From Escherichia coli (lineage in GTDB: Bacteria; Pseudomonadota; Gammaproteobacteria; Enterobacterales; Enterobacteriaceae): 64,000 nt of DNA. Made by a program: the position numbers. Below are positions 17,701 through 20,700 of this stretch, in pieces (within the stretch, counting starts at the first letter, position 1; each line of letters opens with the position of its first letter). The DNA lies in NCBI RefSeq assembly GCF_030013205.1, contig NZ_CP122648.1; one strand, 5' to 3'.

Positions 17701-20700
17701 CATACATCACGCTGGTAGCTACCGCTTTAACGCGGGTATCCATCGCCGCGTCGTTTAGCGCCATGCCGCCCCAGCCACAAATACCGAGCAGCCCGATACG
17801 GTTGCGATCTACCTCTTTTTGCAGCCCTAAGAAATCCACCGCCGCGCTGAAATCTTCAGTGTTGATATCCGGTGAGGCGACGTTTCGCGGATAGCCGCCG
17901 CTTTCCCCGGTGTAAGAAGGATCGAACGCCAGGGTAACAAACCCTCGTTCCGCCAGCGTCTGCGCATACAAGCCGCTGGATTGCTCTTTCACCGCGCCAA
18001 ATGGCCCACTGACCGCAATCGCCGCCAGCTTGCGATCGCCACGGTCTTTAGGCAGGTAAAGATCGCCCACTAAGGTGATGCCATATCGGTTCGGGAACGA
18101 GACTTTACGGTGATCGACTTTCTGGCTCTCGGCGAACGTTTTATCCCATTTATCTGTCATGGACACAGGGGCATTAGGATTGGTTGAATCAGCATAACTC
18201 ATTGTCGTGACTCCACTTAATGATGCGAAAAGCAGCATGGTCGGCATCGCGGTTTTTAGCGTGCGGGTGAAGGCTTTCATAAAAATCCCCATAAAAAACA
18301 ACAGAGAGATACAGGTTTCCGACGGACAACGCTGCGGTGCTTTACTTTGATGGGGTCATTATAGTGAGCAGAATTAGTGCTGATTAGGGGGCGATTAATG
18401 CTAAGATTAATACCATATTGTTATAAATTAATGCGGAGATTGCCGGCATGAAGGGGGGATGTTTCAATGGCGAAAAGGGAGAACTACAACGAGCTGTACC
18501 TGTTTATGCAGGTGGTGCGGGAAGGCAGCTTTACCGCAGCGGCTCAGCGGCTGGGTCTTGCTCAGTCAGGAGTCAGCCGTTCTGTTCGCGAGCTTGAAGA
18601 AAGGCTGGGCGTCCAGCTGCTAGTGCGCACCACGCGTAAACTGTCGCTGACACAAGCAGGCGAGCAGCTCTACCAGAAGACGGCATCTGGATTTGAAATG
18701 TTAGATCTTGGGCTTGCCACGCTGGCGCACTATCGAGAGACGCCCTCCGGCACGGTGCGTATCAATGCCAGCCAGCACGCGATTGATAAATGCCTGCTGC
18801 CAAAGCTGGCGGTATTTAAACAGAGATATCCTGATATCCGGCTTGAACTGATAAATGAGAGCCGGTTCGTCGATATCATCGAGGAAAGATTCGATGCAGG
18901 TGTCCGCCTGGGGCCTGAAGTCGGCCAGGGTATGGTCGCGGTACGCATCACGCCCGATATGGAGATGGCAATTGTGGGGACTCCGGAACATTTTCGTCGC
19001 TATGGTTTTCCGCAAACCCCGGCGGATTTAAAGGCGCATCCCTGTATCGCCTATCAGTTTGCCGACGGCAGCGTATACCAGTGGGAACTCAATCAGGATG
19101 ATAAAAAAATCACTCATCGCCCTGAAGGGCAATGGGCCCTATCCGACAGCTATATGGAAGCAGAAGCCGCCCGGCTGGGCCTCGGATTGGCCTATGTTCC
19201 TGTTGAACTGGTCGCGGATGATTTAGAACACGGTAAGCTTATCAGGGTGTTGCAGCGTTACAGCCTGCGAATGGAGGGATTGTTTCTCTATTACCCTCAT
19301 CGCAACGTCTCCCCCGCCCTGCGGATGGTCATTGATACATTGAAAATCTGAACGTTAACAACGACCGACTCTTTACTGTGCAATATTGTGTCAGGTAGTC
19401 CCTCTGCGTTCAATTCCAGGGTCTGCTTTGAGCGAGAAAGAGAGGACTATCCAGCAATGGAGATCACCCAAAAGAAAAAACCACCTGGCTCCCTCGACAA
19501 CCTTCATCCGGGCATTGAGCCTCAATCAACATTTTTATATCTGTCAGGTTACTTCATTATGAAAACTGATCATCATCGTTGTTTTTGTTGCAATAGTAGA
19601 ATACGCGTATTTATTCCTCCATCTCTATTAATAACGGCAATAAACTGTTCACTTCACTGATATTTAAAATATGTATCCTTTTCAAGCTGTTCAGCGGCGT
19701 AAGAAAAAGTATTGATTATGAATTCGACGATTTAACCATTTCTGGCTGATTGGTAATCATCTGTGATTAATGCTGGTCTATTGATTACGCCAGCACCCTC
19801 TCTAGCTTATTCACCGCCGCCACATACTTCGCCGGATTTTTATCTTTCAGCACCGCCAGATTACGTTGCTTCCAGCGAATAGCCGGAAGATGCTGAATTT
19901 CAGGATAGCGATACCGCGACCAGTCAGGGCTGTTTTGCTTAAAACTGAGCAAGAACTCGCGATCCAGATCCGTAAGATGTGACTTCAACGCCTGCGGCAG
20001 CAAAGTCGTTACTGACAGCAGCGATTCCAGCGACGTTTCCTGCTGAGTCATCCCCGAAAATTCCTGAGCATACAGCGTCGTGATCCGCTCTATATCCCAG
20101 TTTGGGGCCAGCAACTCGGCAATGGGGCGGGGATGGCCTGCCAGATAACAAAGAAAACCGTCAAAGATCTCCCGCATCAGTCCCGGTTTCTCCAGCATAT
20201 TCAGCACATCAAACAGATCGCGCGGGTGCTGACGATCAAGCGCTGCGCAGATTTTACCGCCATAAAGATCCGCCAGCGAGACGACACTCATGGTGGTGAA
20301 GCCATACTCCATTTCCACACGTTCGCACACAGGCATTTCTGCCGGAGGCAACAACAGCCCGCGCCAGACCGGGCTAACCTCGATCTTAATCTTTGCATCA
20401 GCGGTATTCACAATGATGCGCTTTTCATCCGCTTTATTTTCCTGCCGAATCGCGGTGATCCCCGGTCTGCCGTTCAGCGATGCAGTAATCCTCTTCAAAG
20501 CGTCGTTGATAGCCGCCAGATCAGTATCGCGATCCGCAAAGCTCTTATACGCCAGATCAATATCCACCGACAGACGGGGAAAATCCTGCACAAACAAATT
20601 GATTGCCGTGCCGCCTTTCAACGCGAAACAGGACTCCTTCGCCACATGCGGCAGAGCAGCCATCAACAGCTTAACCTGCCGGGCATAACTATCACGCAGA

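What the first reader, a model, noticed from the sequence alone, without database searches (positions are those of the whole stretch)
19559..19797. Second, degenerate copy of the ykgR-ykgO locus lacking ykgM, exactly at the island/backbone junction
19575..19678 is about 92% identical to the ykgR 3' half and downstream sequence (297..400), and five of its eight mismatches fall in the ykgR-like frame as four synonymous and one Phe-to-Leu change (encoding ..IVVFVAIVEYAYLFLHLY*). 19679..19795 matches the ykgO 3' end and its downstream inverted repeat (1075..1192) and still encodes an L36-like tail (PFQAVQRRKKKY* versus [12 protein letters not shown]). The roughly 650 bp holding the Zur box, ykgM and most of ykgO are absent, and the ykgR-like start has a 29-nt frameshifting deletion. 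The copy ends where abiEii begins, so it looks like an old paralogous Zur-cassette locus that decayed.
Basis: seen in the sequence. Interest (0 to 1): 0.55.

Follow-up and report, generated by a model that had tools for sequence, protein, structure and literature searches.

The report
Decayed second ykgR–ykgO copy near thrW
This is a real but dead leftover of a second copy of the E. coli ykgR–ykgM–ykgO zinc-starvation gene cassette, kept by about one in six E. coli strains; it is ordinary genome decay and has no sign of a present function.

Summary
Window 19563-19679 matches the 3' two-thirds of ykgR plus its 3' UTR (canonical 285-401, 106/117 identical). Window 19679-19795 matches the last 12 codons of ykgO plus its downstream hairpin (canonical 1072-1188, 92/118). 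The 670 bp between them, holding the ykgR terminator, Zur box, ykgM and most of ykgO, are missing.

It is not an artefact. The same relic with the same internal junction sits at the same locus in 909 of 5,426 complete E. coli genomes, including O157:H7, and in 24 of 24 metagenome contigs. RefSeq already annotates 19563-19631 as a truncated ykgR pseudogene.

All five differences between canonical ykgR and the inferred ancestor of the relics are synonymous. Later changes among relic alleles are 7 non-synonymous to 2 synonymous. So the copy was probably functional once and then died.

The two halves coalesce with the canonical locus at different depths, which suggests gene conversion or a mosaic origin. 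No intact second cassette was found anywhere.

The neighbouring LysR/hydrolase/MFS block is a separate horizontally acquired module. In this strain the relic's last ~30 bp were removed by a microhomology-mediated deletion that fused it to the abiEii stop codon.

The claimed 29-nt deletion at a ykgR-like start is not supported. Interest is low.

The parts
19563..19631 (+). ykgR' pseudogene: codons 12-33 plus the stop of a second ykgR. There is no start codon, and an in-frame TGA sits immediately upstream at 19560-19562.
   Evidence: 91% to canonical 285-353 and onward. PGAP annotates exactly this range as 'small membrane protein YkgR, incomplete, missing N-terminus'. One search gives the codon table.
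19632..19679 (+). Copy of the 48-nt ykgR 3' UTR. It ends exactly where the canonical ykgR terminator stem (CCTCTCCC...GGGAGAGG, 399-439) would begin.
   Evidence: Only one fixed difference from canonical E. coli alleles, although this UTR differs strongly in E. albertii, E. marmotae and E. fergusonii.
19679..19680 (.). Internal deletion junction: canonical 402-1071 (670 bp: ykgR terminator, Zur box, ykgM, first 34 codons of ykgO) is absent.
   Evidence: The same junction is in all six E. coli alleles read and in 22 of 24 metagenome contigs. GPEC1337 and 2 contigs carry 8-9 extra bp (TTTCCTGC) at the junction.
19677..19715 (+). ykgO' tail: 12 codons plus TGA (PFQAVQRRKKKY*), against canonical [12 protein letters not shown].
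   Evidence: 7 of 12 residues are identical; 4 codons changed non-synonymously and 2 synonymously.
19716..19796 (+). Copy of the ykgO-downstream region with the inverted repeat. The large hairpin (19771-19795) has lost the outer part of its 3' arm in this strain.
   Evidence: Canonical hairpin z = -5.8; untruncated copy in strain DG343-1 z = -4.5; window copy z = -1.1; in other genomes homology runs on to canonical 1221.
19784..19796 (.). Relic/island junction: ATTACGCCAGCA(C). The 12 nt ATTACNCCAGCA are present both in the backbone hairpin and at the natural 3' end of abiEii. The junction overlaps the abiEii stop codon (19785-19787, minus strand).
   Evidence: three-way comparison of window, DG343-1 backbone and ST131 island; no second thrW att repeat in the window.
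19439..19562 (.). 124-bp spacer between the end of the LysR module and the relic. It is found only with the relic and matches nothing else.
15859..19438 (.). MFS / alpha-beta hydrolase / LysR module. It is horizontally shared and is not part of the relic.
   Evidence: 93.5% nucleotide identity over 3.58 kb to Citrobacter amalonaticus; 92-94% to Kluyvera and Klebsiella spallanzanii; 87% to Serratia marcescens.
252..1221 (+). Canonical source locus: ykgR 252-353, Zur box 675-694, ykgM 705-968, ykgO 968-1108, downstream hairpin 1157-1195. The repeat covers 285-401 and 1072-1221.
19785..20705 (-). abiEii, the first gene of the AbiE / type I restriction-modification island that abuts the relic.
28917..28992 (-). 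thrW (tRNA-Thr, CGU), the integration site of the island. In island-free genomes it lies about 2.5 kb from the relic.

Best explanation
The segment is a non-functional fossil of a second, directly repeated ykgR-ykgM-ykgO cassette. That cassette once lay between the pao operon and thrW in an ancestor of E. coli.

Shown:
- Two collinear pieces of the cassette survive: ykgR codons 12-33 with the 3' UTR, and the last 12 codons of ykgO with the downstream hairpin. They are joined at a 670-bp internal deletion.
- The relic has no start codon, no Zur box, no ykgM, no predicted promoter and no Rfam match.
- It sits at the same place, with the same internal junction, in about 17% of complete E. coli genomes.
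- The canonical locus is the ancestral one, because its left flank is syntenic in E. marmotae and E. fergusonii.

Inferred:
- The cassette was duplicated, or a close xenologue was acquired, in the E. coli stem lineage. This came after the split from E. marmotae and E. albertii, because the relic carries the E. coli-specific ykgR 3' UTR and lacks the 5-bp block that the outgroups have downstream of ykgO.
- The second ykgR stayed under purifying selection for a time. All five differences from canonical at the inferred ancestor of the relics are synonymous, and the inferred ancestral peptide is identical to YkgR.
- Before the last common ancestor of the extant relics, the copy lost its 5' end and its middle.
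- It has drifted since, with 7 non-synonymous and 2 synonymous changes among alleles.
- The ykgR half was probably homogenised with the canonical copy by gene conversion, since it coalesces much later than the ykgO half.
- Most E. coli strains later lost the relic through independent deletions. K-12 has a 6.1-kb deletion that left yagP.
- In the window's lineage, a microhomology-mediated deletion (12 nt, ATTACNCCAGCA) removed the relic's last ~30 bp, the BhsA-like/SDR/LysR2 genes and the distal end of the thrW island. It joined the relic to the abiEii stop codon.
For: - Similarity and its significance.
- Same structure in 909 of 5,426 genomes and in six alleles read.
- Same junction in 24 of 24 metagenome contigs.
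- PGAP pseudogene call.
- No Zur box. No promoter. No RNA family.
- Stem 5 synonymous: 0 non-synonymous against crown 2: 7 when counted as events (my own hypergeometric calculation gives p about 0.02). The script's count of distinct codon states was 1: 8, p = 0.003.
- E. coli-type UTR and absence of the outgroup 5-bp block.
- Different coalescence of the halves. Shared-derived against canonical-only changes are 7:1 in the ykgR half and 4:11 in the ykgO half, Fisher p = 0.009. Raw mismatch counts are 11/117 against 26/118, p = 0.011.
- Canonical left-flank synteny in E. marmotae and E. fergusonii.
- K-12 deletion endpoints. Island-free full backbone in O145.
- Junction microhomology and absence of an att repeat.
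Against: - No intact second cassette was found in any genome, so the progenitor is inferred, not observed.
- The left end of homology falls inside ykgR with no detectable upstream homology. The copy may therefore have been truncated from birth. In that case the excess of synonymous differences would have to come from changes on the canonical branch and from chance. Only 3 of the 5 can be placed on the relic branch.
- All substitution counts are small. They rest on six alleles and on hand parsimony, and recombination among alleles was not modelled.
- The UTR is far more alike between the copies (1 fixed difference in 48 nt) than synonymous sites are (5 in 22 codons). A single duplication date does not explain this.
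Confidence: 0.75

Rival explanations
1. Still a relic, but of a xenologous cassette. An ancient thrW-integrating island or other mobile element brought in a ykgR-ykgM-ykgO cassette from a close relative. The cassette then decayed along with the rest of that island (the BhsA-like, SDR and LysR2 genes).
For: - The relic lies within about 2.5 kb of thrW, an integration hotspot.
- ykgM-type genes do travel on mobile elements in E. coli. A Zur-box-bearing ykgM sits on an ICE, and another copy sits on the EHEC urease/tellurite island.
- The cassette has different neighbours in E. albertii, E. marmotae and E. coli.
- The ykgO half keeps 11 outgroup-like states that canonical E. coli has lost.
Against: - The ykgR half carries the E. 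coli-specific 3' UTR.
- The relic lacks the 5-bp block shared by E. albertii and E. marmotae. The donor would therefore have to be inside or very near E. coli.
- The mobile ykgM copies seen here have no ykgR or ykgO flanks.
- No donor lineage was found.
Confidence: 0.2
2. A by-product that was never functional. A single rearrangement, such as a tandem duplication or a Campbell-type insertion of the ~19-kb ykgL-ecp-pao block, had its junction inside ykgR. It created a 5'-truncated copy that was dead from the start.
For: - The two copies are direct repeats that bracket the ecp-pao block.
- The left boundary is mid-gene, with no upstream homology.
Against: - The stem differences are 5 synonymous: 0 non-synonymous, and the inferred ancestral peptide is identical to YkgR.
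- The halves coalesce at different depths.
- An extra 670-bp deletion and a right-end deletion are still needed.
Confidence: 0.15
3. A functional element. The segment would serve as a terminator for the LysR gene or for abiEii, or would encode a new small protein in another frame (ATG at 19559, MKTDHHRCFCCNSRIRVFIPPSLLITAINCSLH).
For: - The untruncated hairpin is still strong in island-free genomes (z = -4.5).
- The alternative-frame ORF is open in five of six alleles.
Against: - The window's hairpin is cut down (z = -1.1) and has no T-run.
- No promoter-like site was found.
- The alternative ORF has a stop at codon 6 in strain 98228.
- Most E. coli strains have deleted the whole segment.
Confidence: 0.04
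4. Chance similarity, low-complexity sequence or an assembly artefact.
For: None.
Against: - E-values of 9e-42 and 1e-16, with scores far above shuffles.
- 9-22% divergence from the canonical copy.
- Present in hundreds of independent complete genomes and in metagenome contigs.
Confidence: 0.01

Closest known systems
Canonical ykgR-ykgM-ykgO locus of E. coli (small membrane protein YkgR; Zur-repressed type B L31 and L36 paralogues)
   Same: Same sequence family, same order and same orientation. 91% identity over the ykgR 3' part with its UTR, and 78-80% over the ykgO 3' end with the hairpin.
   Different: It lacks the ykgR start and first 11 codons, the ykgR terminator, the Zur box, ykgM and 34 of 46 ykgO codons. 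It cannot encode either ribosomal paralogue or respond to Zur.
K-12 pseudogene relics of the same chromosomal neighbourhood (yagP; by my own knowledge also ykgP, ykgQ, ykgA, ykgS)
   Same: These are products of repeated deletions next to the thrW integration hotspot. yagP is shown here to be the C-terminal third of the LysR2 gene, left by a 6.1-kb deletion that also removed the relic.
   Different: Those are truncated single-copy genes. This one is a truncated and internally deleted duplicate of a locus that is still intact 19 kb away.
Extra ykgM copies on mobile elements in E. coli (EHEC urease/tellurite island; an ICE)
   Same: They show that this zinc-sparing module can exist in more than one copy per genome.
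   Different: Those copies are intact ykgM genes, 79-81% identical in nucleotides to canonical. The ICE copy has its own Zur box. They lack ykgR and ykgO flanks and are unrelated to the thrW-proximal relic.

Membership tests
YkgR small membrane protein (Pfam PF28062; NCBI 'small membrane protein YkgR') | Complete ORF of about 33 codons with a start codon | tested here: not met
   The in-frame stop TGA at 19560-19562 directly precedes the homologous part. No ATG, GTG or TTG lies in frame within 19563-19631. PGAP marks it 'incomplete, missing N-terminus'.
YkgR small membrane protein (Pfam PF28062; NCBI 'small membrane protein YkgR') | Conserved hydrophobic C-terminal segment KLINIVVFVAIVEYAYLFLHFY | tested here: met
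   20 of 22 residues are identical in the window copy. The inferred ancestor of the relic alleles is 22 of 22 identical.
Type B ribosomal protein L36 (YkgO, Pfam PF00444) | Complete 46-codon ORF | tested here: not met
   Only the last 12 codons remain, at 19677-19715, with 7 of 12 identical.
Zur-regulated ykgM-ykgO cassette | Zur-box palindrome upstream of ykgM | tested here: not met
   The pattern TGTTATGTTATAACA, allowing up to 3 mismatches, is found only at 675-694 in the whole window.
Zur-regulated ykgM-ykgO cassette | A ykgM (type B L31) gene | tested here: not met
   Canonical 402-1071 has no match in the second locus of the window or of the O157, DG343-1 and GPEC1337 loci, nor in 24 metagenome contigs.
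Relic of a segmental duplicate (paralogous pseudogene) | Significant collinear, same-strand similarity to an intact locus in the same genome, diverged rather than identical | tested here: met
Relic of a segmental duplicate (paralogous pseudogene) | Vertical persistence: same locus and same breakpoints in independent lineages | tested here: met
   909 of 5,426 genomes. Alleles from pig ETEC, chicken strains, a urine isolate, O157:H7 and O145 share the breakpoints.
Relic of a segmental duplicate (paralogous pseudogene) | An intact progenitor copy still present at this locus in some genome | tested here: not met
   None was found in the sampled E. coli rows, in 78 LysR-module loci of other Enterobacterales or in 24 metagenome contigs. 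E. ruysiae, E. whittamii and clade I were not examined.
tRNA-gene genomic island boundary (integrase att site) | Direct repeat of the thrW 3' end at the distal island junction | tested here: not met
   The thrW 3' 25-mer occurs only once in the window, allowing up to 3 mismatches. The junction is instead a 12-nt microhomology with the abiEii end.
Intrinsic terminator | G+C-rich hairpin followed by a T-run | tested here: not met
   No terminator-like site was called on the + strand in 19250-19900. The window's hairpin is truncated, z = -1.1.

The most novel reading that the evidence does not exclude
The ancestor of E. coli carried two working copies of the whole ykgR-ykgM-ykgO zinc-sparing cassette. 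The second arrived at the thrW hotspot on a mobile element, and the cassette including ykgR behaves as a transferable unit within Escherichia. The relic, its partial gene conversion with the resident copy, and the present-day ykgM copies on an ICE and on the urease island would all be traces of repeated traffic of this module.
Probability: 0.2. Interest if true: 0.35.

Novelty: new member of a known kind. Interest (0 to 1): 0.18.

Why it matters
The relic matters little for function, because it encodes nothing usable. It has four modest uses.

- **Annotation.** RefSeq flags only the ykgR' part. The adjoining ykgO' tail and the deletion junction explain what that orphan pseudogene is.
- **History of the paoD-thrW interval.** It is a convenient marker there. 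It separates the ancestral arrangement (O145/O157-like) from at least three independent deletion derivatives: the K-12 yagP type, the DG343-1 type and the AbiE-junction type.
- **Cassette history.** It gives a small hint that the YkgR/type-B L31/L36 cassette once existed in two copies and exchanged sequence by gene conversion.
- **Caution.** The nearby LysR/hydrolase/MFS genes are an unrelated imported module and should not be linked to zinc biology.

Tried and rejected
- **Upstream homology and the 29-nt deletion.** Local and anchored alignments of 19352-19562 against 1-284 scored no better than shuffles. Rejected.
- **Intact second cassette next to LysR in other Enterobacterales.** I scanned 78 loci. 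The only shared sequence beyond the LysR gene is its 87-bp tail.
- **Extra ykgM places in EHEC as a possible progenitor.** They turned out to be urease-island and ICE copies with no ykgR or ykgO flanks. The phage collection had no match.
- **Homology of the relic's right-hand neighbour to ykgL.** The neighbour is a 92-aa BhsA-like ORF. There is no DNA or six-frame similarity beyond canonical 1221.
- **Inverted synteny with E. marmotae.** I tested whether E. marmotae's LysR/NmrA/BhsA genes upstream of ykgR correspond, inverted, to the BhsA/SDR/LysR2 genes downstream of the relic. Only generic LysR similarity of 38-42% was found. Rejected.
- **Divergent 'YkgR' proteins P0126 and P0129 as candidate intact paralogues.** P0126 ends in Nextera adapter sequence. 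P0129 lies at the canonical locus of locus L093, whose sequence is only about 86% identical to the window's cassette and shows indels there, which I take to be assembly errors.
- **The search for homologous proteins with YkgR.** The representative search found only 9 family members and none of relic type.
- **Rfam and promoter scans of the segment.** Nothing was found.
- **Literature.** 30 papers mention ykgR. None of the 15 listed titles concerns a second copy; I read only one of them, and it does not mention one.
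Full report
**What the window is.** The window is E. coli chromosome, 100% identical over the tested stretch to pig ETEC strains such as K_EC180.

The gene order is:
- flavin oxidoreductase, ykgR (252-353), ykgM (705-968), ykgO (968-1108), ykgL' (frameshifted);
- ecpRABCDE, ykgJ, yagU, paoABCD;
- MFS transporter, alpha/beta hydrolase, a LysR regulator (18467-19351);
- the segment in question;
- abiEii/abiEi, a type I restriction-modification system, ash, an integrase fragment;
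- thrW (28917-28992), then proA.

**Observation check.** BLASTN of 19301-20000 against 1-1500 gives two collinear matches on the same strand. The first is 19563-19679 = 285-401 (106/117, E 9e-42). The second is 19679-19795 = 1072-1188 (92/118, E 1e-16). Scores are 84 and 38, against a shuffle maximum of 14.

The 670 bp from 402 to 1071 are absent. They hold the ykgR terminator, the Zur box, ykgM and 34 ykgO codons. The Zur-box palindrome exists only at 675-694.

It starts at codon 12 of ykgR, immediately after an in-frame TGA.

The proposed ykgR start with a 29-nt deletion rests on four bases (ATGA). Neither a local nor an anchored alignment of the upstream 211 or 60 nt beats shuffled sequence.

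**It is real and old, and part of it is already annotated.** RefSeq/PGAP annotates exactly 19563-19631 as 'small membrane protein YkgR, incomplete, missing N-terminus'.

A 449-bp query (19352-19800) is at least 80% covered in 909 of 5,426 complete E. coli genomes. I read alleles from pig ETEC, two chicken strains, a human urine isolate, O157:H7 and O145. All share the left boundary and the internal junction. One allele has 8 extra bp (TTTCCTGC) at the junction.

A scan of public metagenome contigs for the relic-type ykgO tail gave 24 contigs. All have the deleted form, and two carry the 8-9-bp variant.

**The surrounding backbone.** O145 strain RM8995-C1 has no island at thrW and shows the full arrangement: MFS, hydrolase, LysR1, relic, a BhsA-like ORF, an SDR oxidoreductase, a second LysR gene (LysR2), thrW, proA. 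There and in DG343-1 the similarity to the canonical locus runs on to canonical 1221. The window's copy is therefore about 30 bp short.

K-12 lacks the relic because of a 6.1-kb deletion. It runs from 54 bp past paoD into LysR2. The K-12 gene yagP is the remaining tail of LysR2. DG343-1 has a different deletion with other endpoints.

The MFS/hydrolase/LysR1 genes are a discrete 3.58-kb module (window 15859-19438). It is 93.5% identical in nucleotides to Citrobacter amalonaticus, 92-94% to Kluyvera and Klebsiella spallanzanii, and 87% to Serratia. None of 78 such loci in other Enterobacterales has any ykgR/ykgM/ykgO sequence beside it. A 124-bp spacer (19439-19562) matches nothing else.

**The junction with the island.** The window has no second copy of the thrW 3' end, so the junction is not an att site.

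I compared three sequences: the window, the island-free backbone, and an ST131 genome in which the same abiEii gene has a different left neighbour. Both parents contain ATTACNCCAGCA. In the backbone it lies in the hairpin downstream of ykgO'. In the island it covers the last two codons and the stop of abiEii.

The window is recombinant within these 12 nt. abiEii keeps its length of 306 codons, but its last residue is Ala instead of Glu. At least 295 genomes share this junction. The hairpin is strong in the canonical copy (z = -5.8) and in untruncated relics (z = -4.5). In the window it is no longer significant (z = -1.1).

**Which copy is ancestral.** In E. marmotae and E. fergusonii, ykgR has the same left-hand neighbourhood as the canonical E. 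coli copy: aldo-keto reductases, a LysR gene, and in E. fergusonii an FMN-oxidoreductase fragment. The canonical locus is therefore the old one.

E. marmotae and E. albertii have one ykgR-ykgM-ykgO each in the loci I read, with different right-hand neighbours. In E. fergusonii, ykgR and its terminator are fused directly to an integrase fragment and thrW, and ykgM-ykgO is not at that locus. Other Enterobacteriaceae keep ykgM-ykgO near maa/hha without ykgR.

**History read from substitutions.** In the 22 surviving ykgR codons, E. coli, E. fergusonii and E. marmotae all encode KLINIVVFVAIVEYAYLFLHFY.

The ancestor of the six relic alleles, inferred by parsimony, encodes the same peptide. It differs from canonical E. 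coli at five codons, all synonymous.

Among the relic alleles there are 7 non-synonymous events (L>P, N>I, I>T, I>S, I>T, F>S, F>L) and 2 synonymous ones. Comparing 5:0 with 2:7, my hypergeometric calculation gives p of about 0.02. This is the pattern expected of a gene that was kept for a time and then released.

Polarising fixed differences with E. albertii and E. marmotae gives different results for the two halves:

| Half | Changes shared by canonical and relic | Changes private to canonical |
|---|---|---|
| ykgR half | 7 | 1 |
| ykgO half | 4 | 11 |

Fisher's test on this table gives p = 0.009. The ykgR half therefore separated from the canonical copy late, and the ykgO half early. This is best explained by gene conversion of the ykgR part or by a mosaic origin.

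Both halves still belong to the E. coli lineage. The relic has the E. coli-specific ykgR 3' UTR, and it lacks a 5-bp block that both outgroups carry downstream of ykgO.

One feature stays unexplained. The UTR shows 1 fixed difference in 48 nt, whereas the coding part shows 5 synonymous differences in 22 codons.

**Function.** The segment has no start codon, no promoter-like site, no Rfam match, no Zur box and no usable terminator in this strain. An alternative-frame ORF starting at 19559 is interrupted at codon 6 in strain 98228. Most E. coli strains have deleted the segment altogether. I conclude that it is non-functional.

**Comparison with what is known.** It is a pseudogene relic of a well-known locus, and half of it is already flagged in RefSeq. 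Of the 30 papers that mention ykgR, none of the 15 listed titles concerns a second copy, and the one I opened does not mention one.

It fails every membership feature that would make it a working ykgR, a working ykgO or a Zur cassette. It meets the features of a diverged, vertically inherited duplicate. The exception is that no intact progenitor has been found at this locus.

**Verdict.** It is ordinary genome decay next to an integration hotspot. Interest is low (0.18).

Noticed in passing
window 19784-19796 and abiEii 19785-20705 (-); L111 3990-4020: The relic/island junction lies in a 12-nt microhomology (ATTACNCCAGCA) that overlaps the abiEii stop codon. abiEii keeps 306 codons, but its last residue is Ala here against Glu in the ST131 version of the island. 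At least 295 complete genomes share this junction.
   Followed up: yes
window 15859-19438: The MFS / alpha-beta hydrolase / LysR genes form a sharply bounded 3.58-kb module. It is 87-94% identical in nucleotides to Citrobacter amalonaticus, Kluyvera, Klebsiella spallanzanii and Serratia marcescens, and the LysR protein is up to 98% identical. This is clear inter-genus transfer. How the module moves was not examined.
   Followed up: partly
L095 (K-12 MG1655 297381-297791) against L002 and L106: The K-12 gene yagP is the C-terminal third of the LysR2 gene that is intact in O157 and O145. A 6.1-kb deletion starting 54 bp after paoD removed the MFS, hydrolase and LysR1 genes, the relic, and the BhsA-like and SDR genes.
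   Followed up: yes
L006 7000-7263; L089 10001-10333: EHEC genomes carry an extra intact ykgM (about 81% nucleotide identity to canonical) downstream of ureG and next to a hok gene in the urease/tellurite island. It has no ykgO or ykgR. This accounts for 2-3 ykgM places per genome in O157, O111 and O145.
   Followed up: partly
L085 9940-10286: An integrative conjugative element (TraC/TraU/TraG genes) in some E. coli strains carries a ykgM paralogue (92% amino-acid identity, 92 aa with a duplicated VTYPY motif). It has its own Zur-box-like palindrome and no ykgO.
   Followed up: partly
L005 2089-4739 (O157:H7 SS17): In O157:H7 the canonical ykgR is frameshifted, and an ISEc8 (IS66 family) element sits between ykgR and ykgM. 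Both ykgR copies are therefore dead in that lineage.
   Followed up: no
L103 10001-10600 (E. fergusonii-type genome CP086604): ykgR and its terminator are joined directly to an integrase 3' fragment and thrW. The whole ykgM...LysR2 interval of E. coli is absent, and other strains have phages or islands at the same point (L100-L104).
   Followed up: partly
window 354-401 against 19632-19679: The 48-nt ykgR 3' UTR shows only one fixed difference between the two copies, although it differs by roughly a third between Escherichia species. The adjacent coding part shows 5 synonymous differences in 22 codons. This is unexplained; a gene-conversion tract or a lineage-specific constraint are possibilities.
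   Followed up: partly
L003 6328-6345; L112, L126: A minority relic allele has 8-9 extra bp (TTTCCTGC) exactly at the internal deletion junction. It could be retained ancestral sequence or a later insertion; this was not resolved.
   Followed up: no
window about 2780-3397 and 1146-1371: In this strain RefSeq marks ecpA (the major E. coli common pilus subunit) as a pseudogene with an internal stop, and ykgL as frameshifted.
   Followed up: no
L094 10001-10106 (protein P0126): A 'divergent YkgR' in the protein representative library ends in the Nextera adapter sequence CTGTCTCTTATACACATCT. Its odd C-terminus is an assembly artefact.
   Followed up: yes
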